Shown here piece by piece: positions 4,311 through 64,000 of a DNA stretch of 64,000 nt. This DNA is from Candidatus Omnitrophota bacterium (GTDB lineage: Bacteria > Omnitrophota > Gorgyraeia > 2-01-FULL-45-10): contig JAGVGJ010000003.1 of assembly GCA_020057115.1 (NCBI GenBank), positions 100,528 through 164,527 of the forward strand. Reading direction: 5' to 3'. Under the pieces are notes generated by a model. The model made no database searches. It was not told where the DNA came from and saw only the letters and a program-made list of their open reading frames with translations. Position 1 is the first letter of the stretch; every line of letters starts with the position of its first letter. A program made the translations under genes and the position numbers.

Positions 4311-4319
4311 AGAAGAGTG

Positions 4320-45415: not shown

Positions 45416-45463
45416 TTTTCCCAGGACCCTTGCCCCTGGCCCCTGGTTCCTGGAACCTGGCTC
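45416..45463 (+). repeat. heptamer-repeat element copy 4 (TTTTTCCCAGGACC CTTGCCC CTGGCCC CTGGTTC CTGGAAC CTGGCTC). It fills the whole mtnP-stop/ileS-start spacer and ends 3 nt from the ileS ATG
   Basis: Read directly from the sequence. Confidence 0.85.
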
Positions 45464-46333
45464 CTACTTAATATATTTCCCTATTATCAGCTCGAGATCT
45501 TTCTTCGTCTTCGCCGGTATCATAGCTGGATTCGTGACTATCGCGTCTTTGAGGGCGCTCGCGCAGGCGCACTTGCGCTCTCGGCCTATCTTCTTTACGA
45601 CCGTCCTTAAAATGCTCTTCGAGACATCTACGTTCTTCAAAAGATTCTTTATGATCATATCAAGCGATACCGTCTCGGTGGCCTCATCAAGATACCAGCA
45701 GTCATAGTCTGTGATACAGGCGAGCGTCGCATAGCATATCTCGGCCTCTCTGGCGCATCTCGCCTCGCCAAGGTTCGTCATACCGATGATATCCATGCCC
45801 CACATCCTGTATAGTTCAGACTCAGCTTTGGTCGAGAATTGCGGCCCCTCCATGTTAAGATATTTACCGTCGAGATGAACGTTCGCGCCGACCTCTTTGC
45901 CGGCATCATAAAGAAGTTTCGACAGGCAGCCGCAGACAGGGTCAGCAAACTGTATATGGACGACTATTCCGTCCCTAAAGAATGTCGTGCGCCTGGCCTG
46001 GCTCGTCCTATCGACGAACTGGTTGGGTATGACGATATCGAGCGGCTTCAACTCTTTGCGCAGGCTCCCGCACGCTGAAACAGATATTATCTGTTCGACT
46101 CCGAGCTTCTTCATCCCGTAAATATTGGCGCAGTAATTGAGCTCGCTCGGGCTTATAGAATGCCCTTTTCCGTGGCGAGCCAGAAAAACGACCTCTTTCC
46201 CCTCAAGCGTGCCTGTCATATAGTCATCGGAAGGATTCCCGAAAGGCGTCTCGATCTTAACCTTCTTTACATTGGTCAAGCCTTCCATATCGTAAAAACC
46301 GCTGCCGCCTATAATCCCTATTTTTCCGCCCAT
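45464..46333 (-). CDS. mtnP: S-methyl-5'-thioadenosine phosphorylase / PNP-family-2 nucleoside phosphorylase
   Basis: [12 protein letters not shown]… plus PNP_UDP_1 motifs. Confidence 0.8.
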
Positions 46334-46348
46334 TAAATCTCTCCTATT

Positions 46349-46648
46349 TTATCTGAGCCTCGCCGCCACGCCGTATAGCGTGCCCACGAGGAATATCTTT
46401 AAGAACCATACGACAAGTAACGCCAATATCGGCGAGAAATCTATCCCGACATTGTACATTGGTAATATGCGCCTGAACGGCTGAAGGAGCGGCTCCGTCG
46501 TCTTGTACAAAAATTGGACTATCGGGTTATACGGGTCCGGATTCACCCAGCTTATGAGCGCGCGTATTATTATGAGCCAGTTGAGAGCCGTTAAGATAAA
46601 ATCCAGTATCGTAGTGATGGCCAATACAAAATTACTGAGCACGAACAT
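46349..46648 (-). CDS. yggT: YggT-family membrane protein
   Basis: 99 aa, two TM segments, typical yggS-proC-yggT neighbourhood. Confidence 0.8.
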   Translation of the reverse strand: MFVLSNFVLAITTILDFILTALNWLIIIRALISWVNPDPYNPIVQFLYKTTEPLLQPFRRILPMYNVGIDFSPILALLVVWFLKIFLVGTLYGVAARLR

Positions 46649-46651
46649 GAT

Positions 46652-47464
46652 CTATCCTCCCGACATCTCTTTCGACCTTTCGCAGGCCGCTTTCAATGCC
46701 TCTTTTACTATAGATTTGAATTTCTTCGCCTCAAAAGCGCTTATCGCCGCTTCTGTCGTGCCGCCCTTTGATGTCACTTTTAAGCGAAGCTCCGCGGGAT
46801 CCTGTTTGGTCGCCTCAAGAAGCTTCGATGTACCGAAGAATGTCTTCGTCGCAAGCTCTTTTGCCACCTTTTCTTCCAGGCCAAGCTCTATTCCGGCTTC
46901 TATAATGGATTCGATAAAATAGAAGAAATATGCCGGCCCGCTCCCGCTTAAAGCCGTCACTGCATCGACGAGCGATTCATCCACCTCGACTACAGACCCT
47001 ATGAGGGAGAATATCTCTTTGGCAAGCTCGATATCCTCTTTCTTTACATATTTGCCGCGGCTTAAAGATGATATGCCCTCGCCTACCATCGCAGGCATGT
47101 TAGGCATCATGCGGATGACCGGCATCTTCTCGCCGATCGTATCTTCTATGAACTTTGTGGTCACGCCTGCCGCTATGGATATGACGAGTTTATTTTTATC
47201 AAGCGAGCAGCAAAGCTCTTCCTTAAGAAGCGCCTTGAGATCTTTCGGCTTTACCGCGATGATTATTACATCCGAATGTTTGACGACAAGGTTATTTTCT
47301 ATCTCGACTATTATCTTATATTTTGACTGGATATATTCGCGCCTCTTGGCATCCAGCTCGCTTACCATGATGGAAGTGGACTTCTCGATGACGCGCGAAA
47401 GACGGTCAAGTATAGCCTCACCCATGTTGCCGCAGCCGATTATGCCGATCTTTTTATTGATCAT
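46652..47464 (-). CDS. proC: pyrroline-5-carboxylate reductase
   Basis: KIGIIGCGNMGEAI NAD(P)-binding motif plus the P5CR dimerisation domain. Confidence 0.9.
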   Translation of the reverse strand: MINKKIGIIGCGNMGEAILDRLSRVIEKSTSIMVSELDAKRREYIQSKYKIIVEIENNLVVKHSDVIIIAVKPKDLKALLKEELCCSLDKNKLVISIAAGVTTKFIEDTIGEKMPVIRMMPNMPAMVGEGISSLSRGKYVKKEDIELAKEIFSLIGSVVEVDESLVDAVTALSGSGPAYFFYFIESIIEAGIELGLEEKVAKELATKTFFGTSKLLEATKQDPAELRLKVTSKGGTTEAAISAFEAKKFKSIVKEALKAACERSKEMSGG

Positions 47465-47476
47465 AGTTAACTACCT

Positions 47477-47510
47477 CCAGGGTCAAGGGGCCAGGGTCCG
47501 GGGTCCAGAA
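47477..47510 (-). repeat. heptamer-repeat element copy 5, inverted orientation (plus strand reads CCAGGGTCAAGGGGCCAGGGTCCGGGGTCCAGAA). It encodes the yggS C-terminal tail …NSGPRTLAP* and lies just upstream of the proC SD
   Basis: Read directly from the sequence. Confidence 0.85.
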
Positions 47511-48184
47511 TTATGAAATAACGCCCTACCTACCCTGACGATATTTGCGCCTTCTTCTATTGCGACTTCAAAATCATTGGACATGCCCATGGATAATAAC
47601 AAGGGGCCAGGGGCCAGGGGCCAGGGGCCAGAAATTTTATCACGCAGTTCCCATAAAGCCTTAAAATACGGGCGCGCTTCTTCCTGGTCATCAACCTCAG
47701 GCGCCATGGTCATGAGTCCCTTAATACTAATATTTGGATATAATACTATACATTTAATAAGGCCGGCGACCTCTTCCGGACTTATTCCGAATTTACTCTG
47801 CTCACCGGAGACATTCACCTCTATCAGGATATCCTGCACCTTGCCGAGCTTTTTGGCTTCTTTGTCTATCTCTTTTGCAAGGCGCTCGCTGTCTACGGAA
47901 TGTATCAAGGACGCTATTCTTACGGCGTCCTTTACTTTATTCGTCTGCAGGTGCCCTATCAAATGCCATGTCGCCCTGCTGCCTATCGAAGCATATTTTG
48001 ATACAAGCTCCTGAACCCTGTTCTCGCCCAGCTCCTTCATCCCCAAAGCCAGAAGTTCTTCCGCTTCCGGGATGCCGACTTCCTTCGTAACCGAGACAAG
48101 CCGCACATCCTCTTTAAGCCTGCCTGATCTCTCGCAAGCCCTTACCATTCTTTCGGTTACGATTTTAAGGTTGTCTCGTATCAT
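47483..48184 (-). CDS. yggS: YggS-family PLP homeostasis protein (internal and C-terminal segments encoded by the heptamer repeat)
   Basis: …LHLIGHLQTNK… and …LSMGMSNDFEVAIEEGANIVRVG… Start chosen at MIRDNLKIV. Confidence 0.85.
   Translation of the reverse strand: MIRDNLKIVTERMVRACERSGRLKEDVRLVSVTKEVGIPEAEELLALGMKELGENRVQELVSKYASIGSRATWHLIGHLQTNKVKDAVRIASLIHSVDSERLAKEIDKEAKKLGKVQDILIEVNVSGEQSKFGISPEEVAGLIKCIVLYPNISIKGLMTMAPEVDDQEEARPYFKALWELRDKISGPWPLAPGPLLLSMGMSNDFEVAIEEGANIVRVGRALFHNSGPRTLAP
47600..47634 (-). repeat. heptamer-repeat element copy 6, inverted orientation ((GGGGCCA)x4 on the plus strand). It is in frame inside yggS (encodes …KISGPWPLAPGPLL… in the loop before LSMGMS)
   Basis: Read directly from the sequence. 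Four perfect GGGGCCA units. Confidence 0.85.
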
Positions 48185-48221
48185 TTTGACAGGATAAAAT
48201 AGCACAAAGGAAGGCAAAAGT

Positions 48222-48256
48222 CAAAAAAATTCAGCCGGGATATTGCTACCCCGGCT
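48222..48256 (-). terminator. rho-independent terminator after the PEP-CTERM gene
   Basis: On the minus strand: CAGCCGGGgtagcaatatCCCGGCTG followed by AATTTTTTT. Confidence 0.75.
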
Positions 48257-48303
48257 GTCCCCATAGGTCGGCTTTCTAGCTGAAAGCTAATTCCGAACTA
48301 AAT

Positions 48304-49391
48304 TTATTTCTTCCCCTTCTTTCCTGTTCTACGCATACTCGCTCTATCAAATCTCCCCTCACCAAGCCTAAACACCCTTCTGAACGTAAGCATCAAAAGC
48401 CCGCTCAACATGCTCACGATAGTCGCTGGTTCAGGGACGGGGCTACCTATATCTAGCTGTAGGGCAAACCCCTCATCTTCAGGAACTAAATTTATGGTAA
48501 AAGCACTCCAGGATTCTGGCAGGTTAAATGTTGCGTTATTATTGATGCTTGAGGCCGTAAGGAAATTGAATCCCACTGTAGGCACAGATTCATCCAGAGA
48601 AAATAAATTAAACGTACCATTTAGATCAGCAATGCCGTCTACAATTATCTGATCGAAATCAACACCTGCGGTTATTCCTGGAGCTTGATAGTTTATACTG
48701 GCAAAAGATGATGCGCCCATATTCCAGTCACCCGTGATATGCGTGATCCCAGGCGAGTTCCCAGGAGATAAAGTTCCGCCTGTCTGGGTAAGGTCTCCGT
48801 TATATGTGCCTACGCTTAATGTGCCGCCTGTGAAGTTAAAGGCCGCGGTACCTGAGCCCGGTGTTATGGTGGTAGCTTTCAATAGTCCACCCTGCAGATT
48901 ATAGGTTCCGACTGAGCCCGGTTGGCTGGCTACGGTGAGAGTACCGTTAACATTGGCGGTTCCGCCGGATTGTGTAAAAGTGCCATTACCTAAATGACCA
49001 ACAACTAATGCCGTGGCATTCATAGTTCCTCCGCTTTGCGAATACGTGCCGACAGCGCCAGCTTGGTTACCTATATTCAAAGAATAACTACCAGTTCCCG
49101 TTTGCGCTCAATTCCGCTGCTGACAGATAGTGAGGCTGAGCCGCTTGTCATATTTATAGTGCCTGAGTAGGACGAGTTCCAACCCAGATACACGTTACCC
49201 GTAACCTGTGGCGACGAGATAGAAACTATCGAAGGATTTGCATACCCAGCATATCCTATCCAGGCAGTATTATCAGGGCCGGGCTTTGAACCCCATGCCC
49301 AACATCCAGTGTTGGACCAATCTGAGTTATCATTTCTATTCCACCACCCGTCGTCTGCGAATGCCGGAGGCGCGAGGACCATGGTTATCAT
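48304..49391 (-). pseudogene. PEP-CTERM (exosortase-sorted) Gly/Thr-rich secreted protein, split by an apparent frameshift near 49080-49100
   Basis: Two adjacent ORFs in different frames. The downstream part ends in PVPEPATIVSMLSGLLML…RR, a PEP-CTERM motif. The two frames are separated only by a short window containing an A3 run. Confidence 0.55.
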
Positions 49392-49421
49392 TTTTTATTC
49401 CCCATTAGGATATAAATAAAA

Positions 49422-49498
49422 ATCCCAACTTGAGCATTTCGCATAAATTGGGATACGAGGAGTAAAAAAGTCCCAACCGACGTCGGGTCGATTGGGAT
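49422..49498. promoter_or_regulatory. two tandem inverted-repeat pairs ATCCCAA-N19-TTGGGAT and GTCCCAA-N15-TTGGGAT (the second encloses the 10-bp palindrome CCGACGTCGG), upstream of the PEP-CTERM gene. Candidate operator sites
   Basis: Half-sites at 49422-49428, 49448-49454, 49470-49476 and 49492-49498. Confidence 0.4.
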
Positions 49499-49813
49499 AG
49501 TTACACTCCTCAATTTAGCTTTAACGTAAGCTTTTTACTACGGCAACTGGCTGCCATTTTTCCTGATAGACTGCATCAGAGAAACAGGCCCTTTAGCTTT
49601 GCCACGCCCGCGTTTTCGCGTAGGCGCGGTCCCAGCATTTTTGGTGGGACGTCGCCGGGTTTTCCCGGGTTTGCGATTGTGACAATCTTAAAGAGCAACT
49701 CTTACTTTCTGTTCTTCTACAATTCAACTATACCATATTATATATGTAATGCAAGAGTCTGAAATATGACTTTTTTTATCTTACAGCAGTTGAAAATCTC
49801 TCACAATATTCGT

Positions 49814-49880
49814 GTCATCCTGAGGCCGAAGGCCGAAGGATCTGACAGATTCTTCGGCCCCTTCGGGGCCTCAGAATGAC
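49814..49880. repeat. 67-nt hairpin element GTCATCCTGAGGCCGAAGGCCGAAGGATC…GATTCTTCGGCCCCTTCGGGGCCTCAGAATGAC (GTCAT…ATGAC family)
   Basis: Its terminal and internal inverted repeats parallel those of the copy at 4210-4310. Confidence 0.65.
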
Positions 49881-49893
49881 GGCAGAGGGATGA

Positions 49894-52017
49894 CTATATA
49901 TGTTTTAATTCTTCTATCTTTTTTTCTACCATTTCGCGTTCTTGCGCAGAAGGATTCAGCAAAATATATTTTTCGAAATATCCTATAGCCTCTTCCCTCT
50001 TGTCGGGATATTTTGAGTAGATGATCGCGATATTCTTATACGCCCCGGCCTCTTTTTCGGATATCTCGATGACCTTTTTGAATTGGCTCACGGCCTCTTC
50101 ATCCTTTCCGGTCATACCATAAAGGACACCGAGATTATTATGCAATGTTATGCTCTCGGGGGCCATCTCGAGCGCCTTATTACATTCTGCGATCGCATTT
50201 TCGTAGTCTCCGGATTCGGCAAATTTATTCACGGCCTTGAGCTGCTCGTCGAGCGCGGCGGAAGCCGACATTATAGCGTCTAACCTCTTAAGGTTAGCCG
50301 CCAGCTCTTTTGAAGACGGAGCTGCCTCGATACCTTTTGACCATGCCTCTTTAGCCTTGTCGAGAAAGCCTTTATCTGCATAGCCTATCCCGAGCGCATT
50401 GAAGGCAGCGCCATTTTTAGGATCGAGCTTTACCGCCTTCTCCAAAAGCTTTATTGCCATATCTTCCTGGCCAGTCTCCATCATCGCCTGCGCGAACACA
50501 ACATAAGAATTGGACGAATCCGGATTTACTTTAACGGCCTCATTAAAATATCGCATGGCATCTTCGGAATGGCGCAGGCGCGCGTGCGCCACGGACATCG
50601 AGAGAAGCGTGTTAAGATCGTCGGGAGCTCTCTTCAGGACCTTGTCGAACTCCTCTATCGCCTCGCGATACTTCTTTGCCTCAAGATGCTGCGAGCCCAG
50701 ATTATAATGGGCGCGGAAATGGACTTTCTTGTATTTCGCGATGTATGAAAAGAGCGTCTTTTCGTCTTTCCAGAATCGGTTGACATATACGGTGACGGAT
50801 GCGTATGCAAGCATTGTTACGATGATAAAGACCAGAAAACATACCGCTACTACTTTAGGGGACAGGTCTGTCCTGTGGGAATTTACTTTCCCAGACCTGT
50901 CCCCTATAACGAAGGGCCTGTCGCCTATAATACTTGTGATAACATAAGCGACTAGTATCGATACGCCGAAGAATGGTATGTAGAGCCAGTGCTCTGATAT
51001 CGGCGCATTGAGCGGCACGATAAGATTTAGCGACGGGAACAGGAATATGAAGAACCATGCCAATCCCATGCGGACACGCTTATCTTCTTTGGCGGGCTTC
51101 CAAAAAAGCAATGCTAATATTCCGAGAACAATAAGCGACACGATAACGCCCGTATTGAAAAAACTTAAAGGAACTTCGATGTCCCTGTCCATCCTCAAGT
51201 CATAAGGAAGGACTACAAGCCTTAGATATGTAGCAATTACCGGACCGAGCATCAAGAGCCGCCTCGACAAAGGCGGAGCATTTATCGCCTGGGCTTCGAA
51301 TGGCGCAAACTTTAAAATAGTTACGCGCAGCGCCAGATATATCAATCCAACCGCAAGAAGGGCGTAGAAGATAGATTTTCTCTCTTTCCACTTCCCTGAC
51401 CATAAAAGATATAGCCCTGCGAATACCGGGAGCATGACGCATAGCTCCTTTGAAAGAAGCGCCAGTATGAATGCGGCCGCGCAAACGGCCGCATTTAAAC
51501 CGCGCGCGGCTTCCCTGTCCTTGAACAAAAATGCCGCGGCTACGAGAAGAAAGAACAGGGCTAAAAGATCGGCCCTGCCCGCTATATAGGTGACCGCTGA
51601 CGTCTGGAGCGGATGGACTGTAAAGATGAGCGCGCCGAAGAAAGAGGCGGCGCTGTTCCGGAAGAGCATCAATAATAATAAGAATATGAGCGCGCCGTTC
51701 AGGGAATGGATAATGGCATTCGCCAGGTGATAGCCGGCAGGCTCCTTCCCCCACAAGAAGAAGTCAGCCATATAGGAGAGCGATTGCAGCGGCCTGTAGA
51801 AGTTGCTGCGGTCAAGAAAATGGATCAGGTCGTGGGTGAATATAGTCTTTATATTATTGAGCGTTACTGATTTTATGTCGGGGTTATTGAGGATGAGGTT
51901 CTTGTCATCCCATACAAATCCGTTCGGGATGGAATTAAGGTATATGCCAAAACCGATGAAGAATAGGACCAGGATCAGTGTAAGGTTCTTTTTGGACCCT
52001 CGGACCACATCCTCCAC
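49894..52017 (-). CDS. TMTC-like polytopic membrane protein (PMT_2/DUF1736-like glycosyltransferase-family domain) with C-terminal TPR repeats
   Basis: About 11 TM segments with an FYRPL motif, then multiple TPR units. A GTG start is inferred. Confidence 0.65.
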   Translation of the reverse strand: MEDVVRGSKKNLTLILVLFFIGFGIYLNSIPNGFVWDDKNLILNNPDIKSVTLNNIKTIFTHDLIHFLDRSNFYRPLQSLSYMADFFLWGKEPAGYHLANAIIHSLNGALIFLLLLMLFRNSAASFFGALIFTVHPLQTSAVTYIAGRADLLALFFLLVAAAFLFKDREAARGLNAAVCAAAFILALLSKELCVMLPVFAGLYLLWSGKWKERKSIFYALLAVGLIYLALRVTILKFAPFEAQAINAPPLSRRLLMLGPVIATYLRLVVLPYDLRMDRDIEVPLSFFNTGVIVSLIVLGILALLFWKPAKEDKRVRMGLAWFFIFLFPSLNLIVPLNAPISEHWLYIPFFGVSILVAYVITSIIGDRPFVIGDRSGKVNSHRTDLSPKVVAVCFLVFIIVTMLAYASVTVYVNRFWKDEKTLFSYIAKYKKVHFRAHYNLGSQHLEAKKYREAIEEFDKVLKRAPDDLNTLLSMSVAHARLRHSEDAMRYFNEAVKVNPDSSNSYVVFAQAMMETGQEDMAIKLLEKAVKLDPKNGAAFNALGIGYADKGFLDKAKEAWSKGIEAAPSSKELAANLKRLDAIMSASAALDEQLKAVNKFAESGDYENAIAECNKALEMAPESITLHNNLGVLYGMTGKDEEAVSQFKKVIEISEKEAGAYKNIAIIYSKYPDKREEAIGYFEKYILLNPSAQEREMVEKKIEELKHI

Positions 52018-52026
52018 GCTTCGCTC

Positions 52027-52060
52027 CGCCGCCTGGCGCCTGGTACCCGGTACCTGGAAC
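52027..52060 (+). repeat. heptamer-repeat element copy 7 (CCGCCTGG CGCCTGG TACCCGG TACCTGG AACC) between the ftsA stop and the TMTC-like gene start. A partial TTTTTGGACCCTCGGACC motif at 51989-52006 lies inside the first codons of that gene
   Basis: Read directly from the sequence. Confidence 0.65.
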
Positions 52061-53965: not shown

Positions 53966-54877
53966 TTATAATGCGTTCTCTACCAGCTTGACGCAAAGCT
54001 TTCCGAAACTTAAGCCATGAGCTGCCGCGGCCTTGGGCAAGAGGCTTCTCTCCGTCATGCCCGGTATGGTGTTGACTTCCAGCACGAACAGGCTTCCGTC
54101 TTTATCGGCCATTATATCCACGCGCGACATCGAGCGGCATCCTAGCGCCTTGTGCGCCTCCACGCCGAGAGCCTGCGCCTTTTCGAAGACCGCGCGCTCT
54201 ATCGGTGCCGGGACGAGATATTCCGTCTCCGGGCTTTTGTACTTTGCCTCGTAATCATAGACCTTGTTCTTTGAGACTATCTCTATGACCGGAAGCGGCT
54301 TATCGTCCAGGATCCCGACCGTGAGCTCTCTTCCGTCTATATACTCCTCAAGCAATGCGGTCGGTCCGAATTTAAACGCTTTTTCAAGCGCCTCGTAGAG
54401 GGCCTTCCTGTCCTTTACTATCGAAAGGCCTATGCTCGAGCCTTCAAGCGGCGGTTTTACTACCAAAGGCCAGCCCAGCGAATCGACATCGGCTGTAAGC
54501 GCCTTACCTTTTCGAGCCACTGCGAATCTGGGAACGGGTATATTGTTTTTAACGAACGCCTCTTTAGACCCTATCTTGTCCAGCGCCGCCTTTGACGCCT
54601 GAACGCCGGAACCCGTGTACGGCACCCCGATAGATTCCAGCATTTTCTGGACTGTCCCGTCCTCGCCGAACTTGCCGTGAAGAGCTATGAATGCAACGTC
54701 TATTTTATTTTTTTTGATTATATCACAGATGTCGTCTTTAACATCCAGAAAAATGGCGCAGAACCCCTCATCGACAAGAGCCCTGAATACCGCGGTTCCG
54801 CTCTTTAAGCTTATGTCCCTCTCGCTCGATGACCCGCCTGCGAGCACCCCTATACGCTTTGTCCCGATCTTATTCAT
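53966..54877 (-). CDS. ddl: D-alanine--D-alanine ligase
   Basis: ATP-grasp fold (…RIGVLAGGSSSE…). Start chosen at MNKIG, which has an AAGGAG SD. Confidence 0.9.
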   Translation of the reverse strand: MNKIGTKRIGVLAGGSSSERDISLKSGTAVFRALVDEGFCAIFLDVKDDICDIIKKNKIDVAFIALHGKFGEDGTVQKMLESIGVPYTGSGVQASKAALDKIGSKEAFVKNNIPVPRFAVARKGKALTADVDSLGWPLVVKPPLEGSSIGLSIVKDRKALYEALEKAFKFGPTALLEEYIDGRELTVGILDDKPLPVIEIVSKNKVYDYEAKYKSPETEYLVPAPIERAVFEKAQALGVEAHKALGCRSMSRVDIMADKDGSLFVLEVNTIPGMTERSLLPKAAAAHGLSFGKLCVKLVENAL

Positions 54878-54896: not shown

Positions 54897-54930
54897 ACAC
54901 TGGACCCAGGACCCTGGACCCTTGACCCTT
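54897..54930 (+). repeat. heptamer-repeat element copy 8 (CACTGGACC CAGGACC CTGGACC CTTGACC CTT) between the murB stop and the ddl SD
   Basis: Read directly from the sequence. Confidence 0.85.
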
Positions 54931-55880
54931 CACATAACCTTTATCTCGAGCTCAAGGTCTATATTATAATTCTCTTTGACCTTGGACTTCACAAAATCTA
55001 TCAGGCCCTTCACGTCCTCGGCTGTCGCGCCTTTTCGGTTCACTATGAAATTGCCGTGCTTCTCCGATATCTCCGCACCACCCACCTTCTTGCCTTTTAA
55101 ACCCAGCATGTCTATCATCTGGCCGCAAGTGAACTGAAAGCCTTCCGGGTTCTTGAATACGCATCCTGCGCTCGGCACGTCGAGCGCCTGCTTCTGGCGC
55201 TTCATGGTCAGGAATTTGGAACAGCTGGAATTCAATACCTCTTTATCGCCCTTCTCAAGTTTAAAGACAACCTGCAATATTATGCATGAAGAGAGATTGG
55301 ACTTCCTGTATCCGAACTCTATCCTGTCTCTCTTGATGGTTCTGATATTCCCGCTGTGATCCATCACTTTCACGGAAGATACGAACTCGCCAATATTCTT
55401 GAATATGGGGTTTGACGATCCGCCGGCATTCATATACAGCGCGCCGCCTAAAGTGCCGGGTATGCCTACGAGCGATTCCATGCCGGTCAAACCTTCATTG
55501 CAGCAGAAACGCACAAGGCTTGCGATGCTCGATCCCGCCCCGGCCGTAACTGTGCCGCCCTTAGCCGACATATCTTTAAAGTGCGGCGACCCCAGGTGTA
55601 TAACCATGCCTTTAATGCCGCTGTCGCTCACCAGGAGGTTGGAGCCCCCGCCTACGACGACAAATGGGGTCTTGTTCTCTTTTGCGAAAAGAAGCGCCTT
55701 CTTCAGCTCTTTAGGATCATGAGGCTCGACCCATAGATCGGCCGGGCCGCCTATCCTGAAAGTCGTGTGGCGTCCAAGGTTCTCCTGCAATAATACTTTA
55801 CCTTTGATCTTCTTTTTGAGGTCATCTATCATCTTATCGTCCATATCTTTAATTAGCGTTAAGCCGCGCTGAGAGCTCAT
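54930..55880 (-). CDS. murB: UDP-N-acetylenolpyruvoylglucosamine reductase
   Basis: FAD-binding PCMH domain plus the MurB C-terminus. Confidence 0.9.
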   Translation of the reverse strand: MSSQRGLTLIKDMDDKMIDDLKKKIKGKVLLQENLGRHTTFRIGGPADLWVEPHDPKELKKALLFAKENKTPFVVVGGGSNLLVSDSGIKGMVIHLGSPHFKDMSAKGGTVTAGAGSSIASLVRFCCNEGLTGMESLVGIPGTLGGALYMNAGGSSNPIFKNIGEFVSSVKVMDHSGNIRTIKRDRIEFGYRKSNLSSCIILQVVFKLEKGDKEVLNSSCSKFLTMKRQKQALDVPSAGCVFKNPEGFQFTCGQMIDMLGLKGKKVGGAEISEKHGNFIVNRKGATAEDVKGLIDFVKSKVKENYNIDLELEIKVM

Positions 55881-57222
55881 CGGCCACCTTCTTTATGTCT
55901 CCTGCTCCGAGGACCAGTATCATGTCGCCCGGCTTCTTCAATTTCATCACATGTTCGGATATCCTGTCTTTATCCATGACCACCACGTCCGAGATGCCGT
56001 TCTTCTTCACCCTGTCATAAATATTCTTTACGGATACGCCTTCTATCGGCTCCTCGCTCGCCGCGTATATGTCCGTCAGGATCAGTTTATTGACGCCTCC
56101 GAAGCATCTTCCGAACTCATCCGCCAGGTGCATGGTGCGCGTGTATCGGTGCGGCTGGAATATGACGATTATGCGCTTGTCCTTCCAGCTCTTGCAGGCA
56201 TCCAATACGGCCCTTATCTCAGTCGGGTGGTGCGCGTAATCATCTATCAGCATGACGCCGTCCGATTCGGCGCGCAGATGGAACCTGCGCTTTGTCCCCT
56301 TAAAATCTTTTATGCTATTGGCGATGCGGTTAAAATCAAGCCCAAGTTTTAAGCCGACCATGACTGATGCCATGCTGTTAAGGACATTATGCATGCCCGG
56401 TATCCGGAGCTCCACCTTCCCTAAAAGCTTATCCTTGTATATGCACCCGTAGGACGTGCGGAACCCGTCCATAACTATATCCGCGGGATGCATCACGGCC
56501 TCTTTCGAGAACCCGAAGCTCTCGGTTGTCCCCTTGAAGCCCTCGAGCGCCTTCCGGGCGTTCTGGTCTGCAAAATTATAGCATATCGCGCCGCCGGGCT
56601 TCGTATTATTCGCAAATACCCTGTAAGCCGCTATCATGTCTTCGAGCGTCTTGTAATAGTCCATATGCTCCATCTCTATGTTCGTGATAACTGAATATAG
56701 CGGCTTCAGATGGACGAACGAGCCGTCGCTCTCGTCGGCTTCCGCGACTATATAAGGCCCGTCGCCGTACTTGGCATTACTCTTGAAAAGGTCGACCTCC
56801 CCGCCTATTACCACCGTAGGGTCAAGCCCCGCATTCTCAAGCATGACCGAGACCAGCGACGTCGTCGTGGTCTTTCCGTGAGTGCCTGCTATGGCTATGC
56901 CTTTTTTGGCGTTCACGAGCTCTCCGAGGATCTGCGCGCGCTGGATGACCGGGATCTTCCTCTTCAGCGCTTCCGCATACTCGGGATTATCCTCTGATAT
57001 CGATGAGGAATAGACCAGCACGTCTGCGTCCTCGGCGATGTTGGACGCCCTGTGGCCTTTATGCATCCTGCCTCCCAGCGAAGAGAGTTTTTCCGTCAGG
57101 CCGTTAAGCTCGGCATCCGAACCGGATACCTTGTATCCCATCTTAAGGAGTATGAGCGCGATGGCGCTCATGCCTATCCCGCCCACGCCTACAAAATGAA
57201 AGCTCTTCTTATCTAAAAGCAT
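55849..57222 (-). CDS. murC: UDP-N-acetylmuramate--L-alanine ligase
   Basis: …HFVGVGGIGMSA… Mur ligase motifs. Confidence 0.9.
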   Translation of the reverse strand: MLLDKKSFHFVGVGGIGMSAIALILLKMGYKVSGSDAELNGLTEKLSSLGGRMHKGHRASNIAEDADVLVYSSSISEDNPEYAEALKRKIPVIQRAQILGELVNAKKGIAIAGTHGKTTTTSLVSVMLENAGLDPTVVIGGEVDLFKSNAKYGDGPYIVAEADESDGSFVHLKPLYSVITNIEMEHMDYYKTLEDMIAAYRVFANNTKPGGAICYNFADQNARKALEGFKGTTESFGFSKEAVMHPADIVMDGFRTSYGCIYKDKLLGKVELRIPGMHNVLNSMASVMVGLKLGLDFNRIANSIKDFKGTKRRFHLRAESDGVMLIDDYAHHPTEIRAVLDACKSWKDKRIIVIFQPHRYTRTMHLADEFGRCFGGVNKLILTDIYAASEEPIEGVSVKNIYDRVKKNGISDVVVMDKDRISEHVMKLKKPGDMILVLGAGDIKKVADELSARLNAN

Positions 57223-60787: not shown

Positions 60788-60794
60788 ACTAAGC

Positions 60795-61883
60795 CTATTG
60801 TAATTTTAGCGTCGTCAAGCTCAACAGCACAAGCATTATAGCTATTATCCAGAAACGGATCGTTATCTTCGATTCAGACCAGCCGAGAAGCTGGAAGTGG
60901 TGATGCAGAGGCGACATCTTGAAGAGCCGCTTGCGCGTGGTCTTGAACCAGAATATCTGGAGCATTACGGAAAGCGCCTCAGCCACAAATATCCCGCCCA
61001 CGATCACGAGGAGCAGCTCTTTCTTTATAAGCACTGCCACGGTCCCGATCGCTCCGCCTATGGCGAGAGACCCTGTGTCGCCCATGAATACCGTCGCCGG
61101 GAAAGAGTTGAACCATAAGAATCCCAATCCTCCTCCGACCATAGCCGCGCAGAATACGCCTAGTTCTCCGGCCCCGGGAAGATAGAATATGTTCAGGTAA
61201 TCCGTCACCTTGATGTTTCCCGTAAGATAACTCAATATGGCATAGGCAAGGGCCACGAATACCGTGCAGCCTGTCGCAAGCCCGTCGAGCCCGTCGGTGA
61301 GATTTACGGCATTGCTGGACCCGGTTATCACTAAAACGACAAAGAAGACATACAGGAACCCGAGCTCGATAACTGTACTTTTTAAGAACGGGAAAGTTAT
61401 CGTCGTAGGTATCGGCGTACACGCCAGGATAAATATGGCAAGGGCCATGCCTGCCAGTATCTGATAAAAGAATTTGCTGCGCGCGGTGAGGCCGTCATTA
61501 CGCTTCTTCAGTATCTTCAGATAGTCATCGAGAAACCCTACCAGCCCCAGGGCGAGGAACATCCCGAGCGTTACTAGGACGTAGATGTTCGTGACATCCG
61601 CCCATAACACGGTCGAGACGGCGATGGCGATTATCATGAGTATCCCGCCCATCGTCGGAGTACCCTGCTTGTGTTTGTGGAGCTTGTGGAGGTTCTCCAC
61701 GTGCTCCTCTCTTATATGCTGTCCGAATTTAAGCTCTTTAAGCCAGTTTATGACCATGGGCCCGAATATGACGCATATGAAGAAAGCCGTGATGCTCGCC
61801 ATGGCGGTGCGGAAAGTAAGGTATTTGAATACATTAAACCCCATCCAGTAATCACGCAGCGGATAGAATATGTAATACAACAT
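60795..61883 (-). CDS. mraY: phospho-N-acetylmuramoyl-pentapeptide transferase
   Basis: …NAVNLTDGLDGLA… motif. Confidence 0.95.
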   Translation of the reverse strand: MLYYIFYPLRDYWMGFNVFKYLTFRTAMASITAFFICVIFGPMVINWLKELKFGQHIREEHVENLHKLHKHKQGTPTMGGILMIIAIAVSTVLWADVTNIYVLVTLGMFLALGLVGFLDDYLKILKKRNDGLTARSKFFYQILAGMALAIFILACTPIPTTITFPFLKSTVIELGFLYVFFVVLVITGSSNAVNLTDGLDGLATGCTVFVALAYAILSYLTGNIKVTDYLNIFYLPGAGELGVFCAAMVGGGLGFLWFNSFPATVFMGDTGSLAIGGAIGTVAVLIKKELLLVIVGGIFVAEALSVMLQIFWFKTTRKRLFKMSPLHHHFQLLGWSESKITIRFWIIAIMLVLLSLTTLKLQ

Positions 61884-61894
61884 GATCGCCTCAG

Positions 61895-61936
61895 TTTTTT
61901 TCTGGACCCTGGCCCCTGGCCCCTGGCCCCTTCACC
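61895..61936 (+). repeat. heptamer-repeat element copy 9 (TTTTTTTCTGGACC CTGGCCC CTGGCCC CTGGCCC CTTCACC). It fills the murF-stop/mraY-SD spacer
   Basis: Read directly from the sequence. Confidence 0.9.
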
Positions 61937-63289
61937 TTAAAGTTTTTCAACGACTTTCTCCATCCTCATGCCTCGTGAACCCTTGACCAGGATGACATCG
62001 CCGGGCCTGGCTACCTTCTTAAGGACATCCGTTATCTCGTCATGGGTCCTGCAGTGCCAGACGCATCTCTTCGGCATCCCCGAGCGCTTCGCCCATGAAG
62101 CCGTATATTTCGAATATTCACCGTAAGTAAGAAGCCCTCTTGCTCCGGACTGCGCCACGAGAGCTCCGAGCGTCTGGTGAAAATGCTTCGCTTTCCTGCC
62201 CAGCTCCAACATGTCGCCCGAGACGACCCATCTTGCCCTGGCCGGATATATCTTAAGCGCTTCAAGCGCCAGCCTCATCGAGAGCGGGTTCGAATTATAG
62301 GAATCATTTATTATGTCTATGCCTTTTATCTTCATGAGGTTCAGCCTCAGGTGGCCGGGCCTGTAATCCAGGAGCGCCTTTCTGATCGCCTTCTGGCTTA
62401 TGCCGAAAGCGGAAGCGACCGCGATAGCGGCGAGGGCATTGTATACATTATGGCTTCCGATCATCTTGAGCTCGAACCTTGAGCTGTGGTCGAGAAGGAA
62501 TGATATCCTGTCTTTTTTGATAGCTAGAGACGACGCCCTGAAATCATTTATGGAATTGAACCCGAACCTGACTATCGGGAATCTCGTATTACGCATGCGC
62601 GACAGGAACTCGTCGTCGCCGTTAAGCACAAGCATCCCGTCCTCTTCCATATGCTCGAGGATCTCCTTCTTCGCCTCGAATACCCCCCCAAGGTCTTTCA
62701 GATACTCAAGATGAGACGGGCCGATGACCGTAATGACGCCTACGGTCGGGCGAGATATCTTGCTCAAGAGCCGTATTTCGCCTTTGTGGTTCGTTCCGAG
62801 CTCCAGGACCGCCATGTCGTGCGCTGCATTTAGCTTCAACAATGTCTGCGGCACCCCTATATGGTTATTCTTCGTACCTTCATTTTTGAGGACATTGTGT
62901 TTCATGGAGAGCGCGGCCCATATCATCTCCTTCACGGTAGTCTTCCCGCTTGAACCAGTGACCCCTATGACCGGAATGTCGAACTTCATCCTGTGGTGGC
63001 GCGCTATGTGATGTAGGGCATTAGTCGTATCATCTACCTGGATAAGCGTCTTTCCCGGGATGGCGCGCCATTTGGCTCTCTTCGTCACTATCGCGCCGGT
63101 AGCGCCTTTTGCGAAGACCTCGTGCAGAAAGTCGGCTCCGTCAAAATTCGGCCCTTTAAGCGCAAGGAAGAATTCTCCCTTCGCAACAGACCTGGAATCC
63201 GTGGAGACCTTCGCAAGGTCTATGTCTGCCTCCGGCTCCCCACAAACAAGCTTCCCGTGCGTTACTTTCAATATCTCTTTTATTTTCAT
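61937..63289 (-). CDS. murF: UDP-N-acetylmuramoyl-tripeptide--D-alanyl-D-alanine ligase
   Basis: …GVTGSSGKTT… Mur ligase motifs. Confidence 0.9.
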   Translation of the reverse strand: MKIKEILKVTHGKLVCGEPEADIDLAKVSTDSRSVAKGEFFLALKGPNFDGADFLHEVFAKGATGAIVTKRAKWRAIPGKTLIQVDDTTNALHHIARHHRMKFDIPVIGVTGSSGKTTVKEMIWAALSMKHNVLKNEGTKNNHIGVPQTLLKLNAAHDMAVLELGTNHKGEIRLLSKISRPTVGVITVIGPSHLEYLKDLGGVFEAKKEILEHMEEDGMLVLNGDDEFLSRMRNTRFPIVRFGFNSINDFRASSLAIKKDRISFLLDHSSRFELKMIGSHNVYNALAAIAVASAFGISQKAIRKALLDYRPGHLRLNLMKIKGIDIINDSYNSNPLSMRLALEALKIYPARARWVVSGDMLELGRKAKHFHQTLGALVAQSGARGLLTYGEYSKYTASWAKRSGMPKRCVWHCRTHDEITDVLKKVARPGDVILVKGSRGMRMEKVVEKL

Positions 63290-64000
63290 CTATTCTTTCT
63301 GGACCCCGGACCCCGGACCCTGGCCCCTTCTATTATCTCTCTTGCAACTTTGCAATCATCGAACGGATGCACCTCACCCCCAACGATCTGATATTTCTCA
63401 TGCCCTTTGCCAGCTATCACCACTATATCATCCGCGGACGCGCCATTTAACGCCTTCTCTATCGCCTTGCGCCTGTCAGCTACGATGTCGTAATTATTAA
63501 ATAATCCTTTGACGCCAAGCTCTATCTCTTTAATGATATCAGCCGGATCCTCGAACCGGGGATTGTCCGAAGTTATGACTACCCTGTCGGAAAACTCGCA
63601 AGCCGTCTTGCCCATGAGCGGCCTCTTAGTCCGGTCCCTGTTGCCGCCGCATCCGAATACGGTTATTATCCTCTTGTTTCTTGCCACATCCTTTAAAAGG
63701 CCCAATACATTATAAAGCGCATCCTGGGTATGGGCAAAATCGACGAATACCTTGAAAGGCTGCCCTGCGGATACAGGCTCAAGCCTGCCTGGCGCAAAGG
63801 TCACGGTCTCGACGCCTTCCTTTATGGCTTTAAAATTTATCTTCTCGTGATATGCCACAGCGACTGCTGCAAGTATATTCGACACATTGTGCCTGCCGAT
63901 AAGCTTTGTTTCAACCAGGATGTTCCCTCCCGGAGTATTTATCGTGAACCTTGAGCCGCTAAGCGATATCTCTAGACCAACGGCTCTTATATCGGACCCC
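63286..64000 (-). CDS. murE: UDP-N-acetylmuramoyl-tripeptide synthetase MurE, 3' portion (runs off the window). The last ~13 codons (…ARVRGPGSRKNR*) are encoded by a heptamer-repeat element
   Basis: …GRHNVSNILAAVAV… Mur ligase central/C-terminal domains. The open frame continues to the window edge. Confidence 0.85.
   Translation of the reverse strand, partial: GSDIRAVGLEISLSGSRFTINTPGGNILVETKLIGRHNVSNILAAVAVAYHEKINFKAIKEGVETVTFAPGRLEPVSAGQPFKVFVDFAHTQDALYNVLGLLKDVARNKRIITVFGCGGNRDRTKRPLMGKTACEFSDRVVITSDNPRFEDPADIIKEIELGVKGLFNNYDIVADRRKAIEKALNGASADDIVVIAGKGHEKYQIVGGEVHPFDDCKVAREIIEGARVRGPGSRKNR
63294..63332 (+). repeat. heptamer-repeat element copy 10 (TTCTTTCTGGACC CCGGACC CCGGACC CTGGCCC CTTCT). 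It forms the murE 3' coding tail and abuts the murF ATG
   Basis: Read directly from the sequence. Confidence 0.85.

What the first reader, a model, noticed from the sequence alone, without database searches (positions are those of the whole stretch)
45416..63332. The repeat places G-quadruplex-capable (GGGGCCA)n tracts on the mRNA-sense strand immediately upstream of SD/start codons
All genes here are on the minus strand, so the eight plus-oriented copies read GGNCCAG on the mRNA. In at least five plus-oriented copies this gives four G-tracts of three or more Gs separated by 3-4 nt loops, which is a canonical intramolecular G-quadruplex motif. Examples are GGGGCCAGGGGCCAGGGGCCAGGGTCC before mraY and GGGGCCAGGGTCCGGGGTCCGGGGTCC before murF. 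These tracts end 5-25 nt before the SD or ATG of mraY, murF, ddl and ileS. Copy 5, before proC, is inverted and C-rich on its mRNA. The copies inside coding sequence (31275 and 44610) have weaker G-tracts (GG only). This pattern suggests either a role in translational coupling or mRNA processing of essential operons, or selection acting on G4 strength.
Basis: partly seen in the sequence, partly recalled or inferred. Interest (0 to 1): 0.8.

Follow-up and report, generated by a model that had tools for sequence, protein, structure and literature searches.

The report
Dispersed heptamer repeats in Omnitrophota genome
The G-rich tracts are real and could fold into G-quadruplexes, but they belong to a genome-wide family of roughly 30-base arrays of a 7-base unit, a kind already described in Xanthomonas and Nostoc, and relatives carry non-G-rich arrays at the same sites, so a dedicated G-quadruplex function is unlikely.

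Summary
The window, from a Candidatus Omnitrophota genome, carries ten arrays of the heptamer GGNNCCA, typically 4.3 units or 30 nt. Eight are G-rich on the mRNA strand and two are inverted. All seven canonical G4 motifs in the 64 kb lie inside these arrays (1.5 expected by chance).

Six arrays sit at gene junctions, starting 0-5 nt after or overlapping the upstream stop codon, or lying in the last codons of the upstream gene. Four lie in frame inside coding sequence (ileS twice, yggS, a radical SAM gene).

Syntenic loci from eleven other Omnitrophota show 4-5-unit heptamer arrays at the same junctions and protein loops. Their units are often different and cannot form G4 (AGCTGAT, TAGTTGA, ACGAACG, AGTCACC). 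Five relatives have none, and there the genes simply abut. The window itself has an (AGCTNTA)x4 array at 8466-8496.

The general feature is therefore a heptamer short-tandem-repeat family, as in Rehm et al. 2015, cyanobacterial STRR and Beggiatoa TAACTGA. G4 capacity is a property of one unit class. One weak signal fits structure avoidance: G-rich arrays are sense-oriented at junctions but antisense or degenerate inside genes (Fisher p about 0.02-0.1).

Verdict: a new member of a known kind, of moderate interest.

The parts
63299..63328 (-). Array AGGGGCCAGGGTCCGGGGTCCGGGGTCCAG (4.3 units), inside the last 14 codons of murE (tail EGARVRGPGSRKNR). It ends 9 nt before the murF ATG (63289), which overlaps the murE TGA.
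   Evidence: G4 motif 63304-63327, G4Hunter 1.8. A G4 appears in the minimum-energy fold.
61902..61931 (-). Array AGGGGCCAGGGGCCAGGGGCCAGGGTCCAG. It starts 5 nt after the murF stop (61937-61939) and is followed by A7, the SD GAGG and the mraY ATG at 61883.
   Evidence: (24 of 24 specified bases match). G4 motif. A hairpin is preferred in the minimum-energy fold.
54900..54929 (-). Array AGGGTCAAGGGTCCAGGGTCCTGGGTCCAG. It abuts the murB stop TGA (54930-54932). The ddl SD AAGGAG is 12 nt downstream and the likely ddl ATG is at 54877.
   Evidence: Regex G4 motif 54905-54928, but no G4Hunter call at threshold 1.2. The orthologous junction has 0-10 nt in L199, L202 and L206.
52033..52060 (-). Degenerate array GTTCCAGGTACCGGGTACCAGGCGCCAG abutting the ftsA stop TAG. 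It is not G4-capable. The next ORF is a 707-aa TPR protein starting at 52017.
47602..47631 (+). Inverted, perfect array (GGGGCCA)x4.3, G-rich on the plus strand (antisense). On the mRNA it reads CTGGCCC... and encodes SGPWPLAPGP, which is 10 of the 11 residues of a helix-to-strand loop of YggS.
   Evidence: G4Hunter 2.08. Loop alignment with 10 orthologues and with PDB 7ygf.
47476..47508 (+). Inverted array spanning the last codons and the stop of yggS (47483-47485). It ends 11 nt before the proC ATG (47464) and is C-rich on the mRNA.
45420..45465 (-). Array of 6.6 units, AGGAGCCAGGTTCCAGGAACCAGGGGCCAGGGGCAAGGGTCCTGGG. It starts within the MTAP stop codon TAG and ends about 6 nt before the ileS ATG (45413), so it fills the whole 50-nt spacer.
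   Evidence: Empty orthologous sites read TA(A/G)AAAATG in L203 and L205.
44738..44753 (-). Two-unit array AGGGTCCAGGGTCCAG inside ileS (RVQGPE), in variable loop 1 just before the invariant WTTTPWT block. With the adjacent G7 run it forms a sense-strand G4 motif.
44615..44644 (-). Array AGGCTCCAGGTTCCAGGTCCCAGGTTCCAG inside ileS ([10 protein letters not shown]), in variable loop 2. It has GG tracts only. The insertion is absent from the closest homologue P0002 (85% identity).
31283..31305 (-). Array AGGTTCCAGGTCCCAGGGTCCAG inside a B12-binding radical SAM gene (RFQVPGSR), followed by A8.
8466..8496 (-). Second heptamer family, (AGCTNTA)x4 on the sense strand (TAGCTTTAAGCTATAAGCTGTAAGCTATAAAC). 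It overlaps the stop TAG of ORF 8495-9745 and is followed by the SD AGGAG and an ATG at 8451. It cannot form a G4.
   Evidence: Related AGCTNNN arrays occur in L199, L208 and, decayed, in L203.

Best explanation
The tracts are members of a dispersed family of short tandem repeats: about 30-nt arrays of 4-5 copies of a heptanucleotide. The unit here is GGNNCCA, at its purest GGGGCCA. This is the same kind of element as the heptameric simple sequence repeats (SSRs) of Xanthomonas and Nostoc and the cyanobacterial STRR.

Shown:
- The arrays are a DNA-level feature. The same unit is translated in all three frames and in both orientations.
- They are lineage-specific gains at gene junctions, because orthologous junctions are empty in several relatives.
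- They survive only where they do little harm. One such place is between the stop codon and the Shine-Dalgarno sequence of co-directional genes, or in the 3' tail of the upstream gene. The other is hypervariable surface loops of proteins, always in frame.
- Heptamer arrays of other sequence occupy the same sites in other Omnitrophota.

Inferred:
- They arise and turn over by replication slippage or unit turnover, plus some process that spreads one unit family within a genome. The conserved ...CCAG/AAA boundary suggests either insertion next to A-runs or an A-run that belongs to the element.
- They are co-transcribed within the operons, where the G-rich versions can fold into a G-quadruplex or a competing GGNCC hairpin.
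- That structure probably acts at most as a passive structured spacer, comparable to REP elements. It is mildly selected against on the sense strand inside coding sequence.

G4 capacity is a by-product of the unit that happens to dominate in this genome. It is not the reason the arrays exist.
For: Period-7 arrays reach 14 per 100 kb in the window against 3.2 per 100 kb in 79 unrelated IleS loci. Other periods are not enriched. Across 296 kb of Omnitrophota DNA there are 33 arrays, and the unit-number histogram is 3:7, 4:14, 5:9, 6 or more:3.

The reading phase differs between coding copies (0, 1, 0, 1, 2), giving unrelated peptides.

IleS loops 1 and 2 are hypervariable in length (10-50 and 12-32 aa). 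They show 7-aa periodic peptides in 17 of 50 Omnitrophota homologues.

Syntenic loci carry arrays at the same sites:
- L199/L200: GGGTATA at MTAP|ileS, PBP2|rodA and the yggS loop; GGGAGTT (reverse complement) in ileS; AGCTGAT x9; AGCTNTC.
- L202: GGGTTAC at MTAP|ileS, ACGAACG in ileS, AGGGGCC at the rluD tail.
- L206, L208, L209 and L201: GGGTRTA, TAGTTNA at murB|ddl, AGCYATC in the yggS loop, AGTCACN three times, GGGTATT (reverse complement).

L119, L204, L205 and L207 have none; in L203 the only period-7 hit is an A-rich low-complexity stretch (21394-21416), which I do not count as an array. In these loci the genes abut. yggS loops without a detectable array still show decayed 7-nt periodicity.

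No Rfam family, terminator-like site or promoter-like site coincides with the arrays. Seven of ten arrays are followed by AAA, against a background of 0.014-0.02.

The same (GGNCCAG) array of at least 4 units occurs in at least 118 contigs of many other phyla. By a crude GC3-based gene call it is almost always non-coding there.
Against: Within one genome the arrays share a unit family: 10 of 11 in the window, and all 3 in L209. Independent in-situ slippage does not predict this. A spreading or homogenising process is needed and I could not identify it.

The orientation and G-tract asymmetry between junction and coding copies, together with G3N4 units of three different sequences at the MTAP|ileS junction in three genomes, leave room for selection on G-richness at junctions.

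In YggS the array substitutes for a loop of equal length rather than adding to it. That is awkward for a simple insertion model.

No population data were available to show slippage. Only 64 kb of the source genome and about 23 kb from each relative were examined.
Confidence: 0.6

Rival explanations
1. The sense-strand G-tracts fold into RNA G-quadruplexes between cistrons. They are maintained by selection to tune translational coupling, ribosome loading or mRNA processing of the dcw and ileS operons.
For: Five canonical G4 motifs lie on the mRNA strand, 6-22 nt upstream of starts. A G4 is in the predicted minimum-energy fold for murE|murF and murB|ddl. MTAP|ileS carries G3N4 arrays of three different units in three genomes, and PBP2|rodA, yggS|proC and the rluD tail carry them in relatives. 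Pooled, junction arrays are 9 sense to 1 antisense, and coding arrays are antisense or weakened. Oligonucleotides of the analogous Xanthomonas and Nostoc repeats form G4 in vitro (PMC4692102).
Against: The arrays are absent from the same junctions in five relatives, and from the IleS loop of the closest homologue. Non-G heptamer arrays occupy equivalent junctions (8466-8496 in the window, plus L199, L201 and L208), and they have the same 4-5-unit length. One junction copy (yggS|proC) is inverted and one (ftsA) has lost its G-tracts. Hairpins compete with or beat the G4 in the other 3 of the 5 sense-strand junction arrays folded. Transcription strand and replication strand cannot be separated here, because every gene is co-oriented with the GC skew. 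Rehm et al. found no regulatory role.
Confidence: 0.15
2. The arrays are written by an active, lineage-specific process rather than by passive slippage. This could be a micro mobile element or a templated (reverse-transcriptase or repair-polymerase) patch. It would insert or overwrite about 30 nt with copies of a genome-specific heptamer, preferentially next to A-runs or stop codons.
For: Units are shared within a genome at many unrelated sites (window, L209, L199). The boundary is sharp and conserved...CCAG followed by AAA in 7 of 10 arrays including all 4 coding copies, with p far below 1e-6. Empty sites read TA(A/G)AAAATG. Array length is about 30 nt regardless of unit. The YggS loop is substituted at equal length. 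The same sites carry different units across lineages.
Against: No candidate enzyme or template was found in the window, though I did not search for one systematically. No target-site duplication is visible. The A-run rule does not hold for most other unit families. Some genomes (L201, L202, L208) have a different unit at every site, as expected from independent in-situ drift. L202 and L208 share a decaying ACGAACG array at the same ileS site, which shows plain vertical inheritance.
Confidence: 0.12
3. The arrays are DNA-level heptad iterons bound cooperatively by a protein, as the omega repressor of inc18 plasmids binds 7-bp heptads, or by a nucleoid or segregation factor.
For: Four to five contiguous 7-bp units is the geometry used by ribbon-helix-helix proteins on heptad arrays (my own knowledge, not tested here). 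Unit families are genome-specific. Each unit contains the mini-palindromes CCWGG and GGNCC.
Against: Arrays sit inside operons and inside coding loops rather than at promoters. Both orientations occur. Many arrays are decayed. No candidate binding protein was identified. The sites are not conserved among close relatives.
Confidence: 0.04
4. The arrays are phase-variation (contingency) repeats, in which a change in unit number switches genes on and off.
For: Heptanucleotide SSRs drive phase variation in Haemophilus (papers listed).
Against: The genes are housekeeping (ileS, mur genes, ddl, yggS). Coding copies are in frame, and a one-unit change would be a lethal frameshift in ileS. Junction copies lie after stop codons and upstream of the SD, where spacing is not critical. 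Rehm et al. reached the same conclusion for their class.
Confidence: 0.02

Closest known systems
G-quadruplex-forming heptameric SSRs of Xanthomonas (GGGAATC) and Nostoc PCC 7120 (GGGGA(C/T)T), Rehm et al. 2015, PMC4692102
   Same: Both are tandem heptamers with one G3-4 tract per unit, dispersed in many copies, with a clear mode at four units. Both lie mostly between co-directional ORFs, close to or overlapping the upstream stop codon with the G-rich strand on the coding strand. Both are rare on the coding strand inside ORFs, are not linked to surface or virulence genes, and differ in length and sequence between relatives at the same junction.
   Different: The unit sequence differs (GGNNCCA) and so does the phylum (Omnitrophota). 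A larger share lies inside coding sequence here: 4 of 10 fully internal and 2 more in 3' tails, against 7-11%. Convergent inverted pairs are not a feature here. Here the comparison with relatives shows that non-G heptamers have the same architecture, which weakens the argument that four units reflects G4 formation. G4 formation has not been tested biophysically for this unit.
TAACTGA heptamer direct repeats of marine Beggiatoaceae, some cyanobacteria and Bacteroidetes, MacGregor 2015, PMC4679880
   Same: Sets of 2-6 heptamers sit a few nucleotides upstream of start codons inside operons, including essential genes. They often overlap the stop codon of the upstream gene. Reverse-orientation copies are tolerated in frame at the periphery of proteins. 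Their origin and mobility are unexplained.
   Different: TAACTGA has stop codons in all frames in the forward orientation and is not G-rich, whereas GGNNCCA has none in either orientation. The window's second family, AGCTNTA at 8466-8496, is the closer analogue. Canonical SD sequences follow the arrays here (mraY, ddl, ORF 8451), whereas they are rare in Beggiatoa.
Cyanobacterial STRR (short tandemly repeated repetitive) heptanucleotides such as CCCCAGT, Mazel et al. 1990 (from my own knowledge; the term occurs in papers listed)
   Same: Genome-specific families of tandem heptanucleotides dispersed mainly in non-coding DNA, with no established function.
   Different: The units and the taxa differ. 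STRR arrays are often longer. In-frame occupation of housekeeping-enzyme loops is not a described feature, to my knowledge.
REP/BIME intercistronic elements of enterobacteria (a functional analogy only; from my own knowledge)
   Same: Short, structured, dispersed elements located after stop codons inside operons and co-transcribed. They can act as passive mRNA structure.
   Different: REPs are imperfect palindromes mobilised by RAYT transposases. These elements are direct heptamer repeats, and no palindromic unit or RAYT was seen.

Membership tests
G4-forming heptameric SSR class (Rehm et al. 2015) | Tandem repeat of a 7-nt unit carrying a G3-G4 tract | tested here: met
   TRF period 7 with 2.3-5.6 copies. 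Units include GGGGCCA and GGGTCCA. Three coding copies and the ftsA copy have mostly GG only.
G4-forming heptameric SSR class (Rehm et al. 2015) | Many dispersed copies in one genome | tested here: inconclusive
   Ten copies lie in 33 kb of the window and none in the first 31 kb. The rest of the 205-kb contig and the genome could not be fetched.
G4-forming heptameric SSR class (Rehm et al. 2015) | Preference for four units | tested here: met
   Five of ten arrays are called at 4.3 units, i.e. 30 nt (44615, 47602, 54900, 61902, 63299), and two more are close (47476 at 4.7, 52033 at 28 nt). The mode is 4 among 33 Omnitrophota arrays. The same holds for non-G units.
G4-forming heptameric SSR class (Rehm et al. 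2015) | Located between aligned ORFs, within 50 nt of the upstream stop codon, G-rich on the coding strand | tested here: met
   Five of six junction arrays are G-rich on the coding strand. Of the six, three start 0-5 nt after the stop (61902, 54900, 52033), two overlap it (45420, 47476) and one ends 10 nt before it inside the murE tail (63299). One (yggS|proC) is inverted.
G4-forming heptameric SSR class (Rehm et al. 2015) | G4 formation of the repeat (CD spectroscopy, K+ dependence) | not testable with these tools
   In silico only: 7 canonical motifs, G4Hunter 1.6-2.1 at seven of ten arrays. ViennaRNA with G4 energies puts a G4 in the minimum-energy fold for 2 of the 5 sense-strand junction arrays.
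G4-forming heptameric SSR class (Rehm et al. 2015) | Unit sequence GGGNATC or GGGGAYT | tested here: not met
   The unit is GGNNCCA. It is therefore the same kind of element, not the same sequence family.
Beggiatoaceae-type TAACTGA heptamer repeats (MacGregor 2015) | Unit TAACTGA with stop codons in all three forward frames | tested here: not met
   GGNNCCA has no stop codon in either orientation. Only the second family, AGCTNTA at 8466-8496, shares the stop-codon property.
Beggiatoaceae-type TAACTGA heptamer repeats (MacGregor 2015) | Sets of 2-6 units a few nucleotides upstream of start codons, often overlapping the upstream stop codon | tested here: met
   for the window. for the published description.
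REP/BIME-type palindromic elements | Imperfect palindrome of about 35 nt forming one stable hairpin | tested here: not met
   The arrays are direct repeats. Only 4-6 bp GGCC/GGNCC self-pairs form, and the folds are modest.
Phase-variation SSR (contingency locus) | Located in the 5' coding region or promoter spacer of surface or adaptive genes, with unit-number polymorphism | tested here: not met
   The location criterion fails: the genes are housekeeping, and the arrays are in frame or lie after stop codons. Polymorphism could not be tested, since there is a single sequence per cluster and L199 equals L200.
Known structured RNA families (Rfam 15) | Match to a covariance model at the gathering score | tested here: not met
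   There are no matches anywhere in the window.

The most novel reading that the evidence does not exclude
Omnitrophota may have an active, lineage-specific array writer. This would be a templated or mobile process that inserts or overwrites about 30 nt with 4-5 copies of a genome-specific heptamer at A-run or stop-codon sites and in protein loops. It would explain four things: shared units within a genome, different units at the same sites across genomes, the fixed length that does not depend on sequence, and the sharp CCAG/AAA boundary. A variant of the same idea is that a CCWGG-directed very-short-patch repair bias homogenises the arrays, given the CCWGG excess and CTAG deficit in the window.
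Probability: 0.1. Interest if true: 0.75.

Novelty: new member of a known kind. Interest (0 to 1): 0.4.

Why it matters
Heptameric tandem repeats with a four-unit mode are a long-noted, unexplained oddity of some bacterial genomes. The main published rationale for the four-unit mode is that a G-quadruplex needs four G-tracts.

The Omnitrophota loci offer a natural comparison. The same junctions and protein loops carry G-rich and non-G-rich heptamers of the same length in different lineages. This argues that the length and the placement are set by how the arrays arise and where they are tolerated, not by G4 folding.

The arrays also mark a routine annotation hazard. They extend or interrupt reading frames of essential genes (the MurE and YggS tails, the IleRS editing-domain loops), and they create 7-residue periodic peptides that are not under peptide-level selection.

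If the arrays do fold in vivo, they would be convenient natural test cases for intercistronic G4 effects, in a phylum with no genetic system.

Tried and rejected
Searches that did not help:
It returned unrelated, mostly high-GC genomes and neither the source genome nor its relatives. I used it only for a crude context census.
- The metagenome scan with the IleS alignment used universal IleRS motifs. It returned one Omnitrophota locus (L119) and 79 others, which I reused as background controls.
- An exact look-up of MurF found no contig.
- DNA of the closest relative, P0002, was not available.
- Cluster look-ups found no population variants.
- L199 and L200 are identical over 22.8 kb, so slippage rates could not be assessed.
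- Rfam at gathering thresholds found nothing.
- The promoter and terminator scan found nothing at the arrays.

Explanations considered and rejected:
- CRISPR array: there are no spacers and the units are contiguous.
- Intrinsic terminator: the A-run follows the G-rich strand, so the geometry is wrong on both strands.
- Peptide-level selection for Gly/Pro linkers: the same DNA is read in three frames and two orientations.
- Assembly artefact: the arrays are 30 nt long and in frame, and analogous arrays are identical in two independent assemblies.
- CsrA-type GGA sites: GGA is absent from the purest copies.

A literature search for Omnitrophota heptamer repeats found nothing.

Full report
WHAT IS THERE

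The window comes from a Candidatus Omnitrophota genome. The IleS protein is 100% identical to a JGI protein on a 204,981-bp contig, and every close homologue that carries a name is labelled Omnitrophota or Omnitrophica.

Tandem Repeats Finder and a mismatch-tolerant scan find ten arrays of the heptamer CTGGNCC on the plus strand, which reads GGNNCCA on the minus strand.
- Eight have the G-rich strand on the minus strand: 63299-63328, 61902-61931, 54900-54929, 52033-52060, 45420-45465, 44738-44753, 44615-44644 and 31283-31305.
- Two are inverted: 47602-47631 and 47476-47508.
- Five of the ten are called at 4.3 units, which is 30 nt, and two more are close (4.7 units and 28 nt).

All genes in this half of the window are on the minus strand.

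IS IT MORE THAN CHANCE

Period-7 tandem arrays occur at 14 per 100 kb in the window. In 1.14 Mb of unrelated IleS loci the figure is 3.2 per 100 kb. Periods 4-6 and 8-12 are not enriched.

The G3+N1-7 x4 regex finds seven motifs, and all of them lie inside the arrays. Five are on the sense strand and two on the antisense strand. Markov-1 simulations give a mean of 1.5 and a maximum of 5. G4Hunter peaks at 1.6-2.1 at seven of the ten arrays; the murB|ddl array has a regex motif but does not reach the 1.2 threshold.

ANATOMY

Six arrays are at gene junctions. Three start 0-5 nt after the upstream stop codon (murF, murB, ftsA) and two overlap it (MTAP, yggS). The murE array ends 10 nt before the stop, inside the last codons of the gene.
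- The murE array is read through and adds a 13-aa tail. It preserves the ATGA stop/start overlap with murF.
- The gaps to the next start are 9, 18, 22, 15, 11 and about 6 nt.
- Canonical SD sequences follow the arrays before mraY and ddl.
- In the dcw cluster every spacer longer than 19 nt consists of an array. All other junctions overlap or are at most 19 nt. The arrays create the spacers.

Four arrays are inside coding sequence and in frame.
- Two lie in hypervariable loops of IleRS, flanking the invariant WTTTPWT block.
- One lies in a loop of YggS.
- One lies in the radical SAM protein.
- Counting all five translated copies (these four plus the murE tail array), the reading phases are 0, 1, 0, 1 and 2. 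The peptides differ: [34 protein letters not shown] and GARVRGPGSR. The repeat is therefore a DNA-level feature, not a selected peptide.

On the G-rich strand, seven of ten arrays end ...CCAG and are followed by AAA. This includes all four coding copies. The background frequency is 0.014-0.02.

No terminator-like site, promoter-like site or Rfam family coincides with any array. The junction arrays are therefore most likely co-transcribed within polycistronic mRNAs (inference).

FOLDING

I used ViennaRNA with G-quadruplex energies. The sense RNA puts a G4 in the minimum-energy structure at murE|murF and murB|ddl only. At murF|mraY, MTAP|ileS and ftsA the hairpins built on GGCC/GGNCC self-pairing are equal or better. 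G4 formation is plausible but not compelling on thermodynamic grounds. Only biophysics can settle it.

COMPARATIVE EVIDENCE

Gene order is conserved across Omnitrophota, so orthologous sites can be compared.

Arrays of 4-5 heptamers recur at the same places but with other units.
- L199/L200: GGGTATA x4 at MTAP|ileS and at PBP2|rodA, and its reverse complement in the YggS loop; GGGAGTT (reverse complement) in IleS loop 1; AGCTGAT x9 after ftsA; AGCTNTC at rluD|murA.
- L202: GGGTTAC at MTAP|ileS, ACGAACG in IleS loop 1, and AGGGGCC in the rluD tail.
- L206: GGGTRTA at yggS|proC and CTCAATA in the YggS loop.
- L208: TAGTTNA x4.7 at murB|ddl, AGCYATC in the YggS loop, and a decayed ACGAACG in IleS.
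- L209: AGTCACN three times.
- L201: GGGTATT (reverse complement) in IleS, plus three other units.

L119, L204, L205 and L207 have none. In L203 the only period-7 hit is an A-rich low-complexity stretch, which I do not count as an array. In these loci the MTAP stop and the ileS ATG are separated by 2-3 nt (TAAAAATG). The murB|ddl spacing is 0-10 nt in L199, L202 and L206.

Seventeen of 50 IleS homologues show 7-residue periodic peptides in the two loops. The closest homologue (85% identity) lacks the loop-2 array. YggS loops without a detectable array still show decayed 7-nt periodicity.

In YggS the array encodes 10 of the 11 loop residues. That loop is 8-20 residues long in relatives and 10 in the nearest solved structure, 7ygf. 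There the array substitutes for the loop rather than adding to it.

The window itself has a second family, (AGCTNTA)x4 at 8466-8496. It overlaps a stop codon and is followed by an SD and an ATG.

Over 296 kb of Omnitrophota DNA the unit-number histogram is 3:7, 4:14, 5:9, 6 or more:3. The non-G units fall in the same 4-5 range.

WHAT THIS MEANS FOR THE G4 IDEA

The conserved properties are the 7-nt period, the roughly 30-nt length, and placement at stop-proximal junctions and protein loops. G-richness is a property of some unit families only. Essential operons in sister lineages work with no array, or with arrays that cannot form G4. A dedicated G4 role in coupling or processing is therefore not supported.

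Two signals keep a weaker version alive.
(a) Strong G3 arrays are 9 sense to 1 antisense at junctions, but 1 sense to 4 antisense inside genes. Fisher p is 0.017. It is 0.04 if the one copy whose orientation is forced by stop codons is dropped, and 0.10 if the two weakened sense copies are counted.
(b) In the window, sense-strand coding copies have fewer G3 tracts than junction copies (p=0.04, n=8).

Both signals fit avoidance of sense-strand G-tracts in translated RNA, which Rehm et al. also reported. But n is small and the arrays within a genome are not independent. Transcription strand also cannot be separated from replication strand here, because all genes follow the GC skew.

MOST LIKELY EXPLANATION

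The arrays are a dispersed heptamer short-tandem-repeat family. It is generated and turned over by slippage or unit turnover, plus an unidentified spreading or homogenising process. It is filtered by selection to the few harmless positions, and it has at most a passive structural effect on the mRNA. My confidence is about 0.6. The steps that are shown and those that are inferred are separated in Best explanation.

The rivals are a functional RNA G4 (0.15), an active array writer or micro mobile element (0.12), a DNA heptad iteron for a binding protein (0.04) and phase variation (0.02).

COMPARISON WITH WHAT IS KNOWN

The closest described class is the G4-forming heptameric SSRs of Xanthomonas (GGGAATC) and Nostoc (GGGGAYT).
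- They have a mode of four units.
- They lie between aligned ORFs.
- They are rare on the coding strand inside ORFs.
- They vary between relatives.
- Their function is unknown (PMC4692102).

The Beggiatoa TAACTGA repeats share the placement just upstream of the start and overlapping the stop, and the tolerance of reverse copies inside ORFs (PMC4679880). Cyanobacterial STRR are the classical precedent (my own knowledge).

The present case differs in four ways: the unit sequence, the phylum, the high share of in-frame copies in housekeeping enzymes, and the cross-lineage evidence that non-G units share the architecture. A full-text search found no paper describing such repeats in Omnitrophota. 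I therefore file it as a new member of a known kind.

UNEXPLAINED
- The CCAG/AAA boundary.
- Unit families shared within a genome, against different units at the same site in different genomes.
- The 4-5-unit length, which does not depend on sequence.
- An excess of CCWGG (196 observed against 131 +/- 12.5 expected) and a deficit of CTAG (32 against 82 +/- 9.6) outside the arrays. This resembles a very-short-patch repair signature, and every unit of the array carries CCAGG.

LIMITS

Only 64 kb of the source genome and about 23 kb from each of eleven relatives could be examined. The collection scans and contig look-ups are exhausted. No population or expression data were available.

Noticed in passing
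window 8466-8496 (minus strand sense): A second heptamer family, (AGCTNTA)x4, overlaps the stop TAG of ORF 8495-9745. It is followed by the SD AGGAG and an ATG at 8451. Related AGCTNNN arrays occur in L199 (x9 after ftsA, and at rluD|murA), in L208 (YggS loop) and, decayed, in L203.
   Followed up: partly
window 49539-49685 (minus strand): A sub-threshold match to the c-di-GMP-I riboswitch aptamer (26.8 bits against a gathering score of 35, E=0.0037, full model length with an insertion). It lies in a 502-nt non-coding stretch upstream of ORF 49077-49391 and a PEP-CTERM ORF (48304-49080).
   Followed up: partly
window 1884-2306: A 423-nt ORF-free stretch containing an 18-bp long-range stem (TACCCTTCGTGGTGGGGT ... 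ACCCCACCACGAAGGGTA) and further hairpins. It has no Rfam family at the gathering score, and only a chance-level hit (E=0.56) with lax filters. It may be an undescribed structured RNA.
   Followed up: partly
window 42473-42536: A 12/24-nt tandem repeat encodes a (KKAV)n lysine-rich stretch in the N-terminal extension of the DksA/TraR-type zinc-finger ORF immediately downstream of ileS.
   Followed up: no
window 48218-52060, and L199, L202, L206: No ftsZ follows ftsA in the window or in the syntenic Omnitrophota loci. The window has a 707-aa TPR ORF, a non-coding stretch and PEP-CTERM ORFs inserted between ftsA and yggS. A conserved promoter-like TTGACT...GTGATAT element precedes yggS in the relatives, and there is a TTGACT-17-TATTTT match at 48224-48196 in the window.
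   Followed up: partly
window 54930-57222; L199 1973-4216; L202 2066-4342; L206 2056-4350: murC and murB are separate, overlapping ORFs in the window and in L208. In L199, L202 and L206 they are fused into one 747-764-aa ORF.
   Followed up: no
whole window, outside the arrays: CCWGG is over-represented (196 observed against 131 +/- 12.5 expected) and CTAG is depleted (32 against 82 +/- 9.6). AGCT is mildly over-represented. This is a very-short-patch-repair-like signature, and every unit of the array contains CCAGG.
   Followed up: no
L138 (Ga0209515_10005602), 685-9320: A locus from a non-Omnitrophota organism (IleS about 50% identical) carries ten heptamer arrays of several different units (GGCTGGG, GAGCCCT, TTCCGCA, GCAGCTT and others) in 15 kb. 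L145 and L136 carry a few.
   Followed up: no
L204 around 7900 (YggS loop): In place of a heptamer array, the YggS loop holds two copies of the 13-nt palindrome GGGGACAGTCCCC, read through in frame.
   Followed up: no
L001-L118: Exact (CTGGNCC) arrays of at least 4 units occur in at least 118 contigs from many phyla (Lysobacterales, Gemmatimonadota, Acidobacteriota, Planctomycetota, Streptomyces and others). Several contigs can come from one MAG. The mode is again four units, and by a crude GC3-based gene call the arrays are almost always non-coding.
   Followed up: partly
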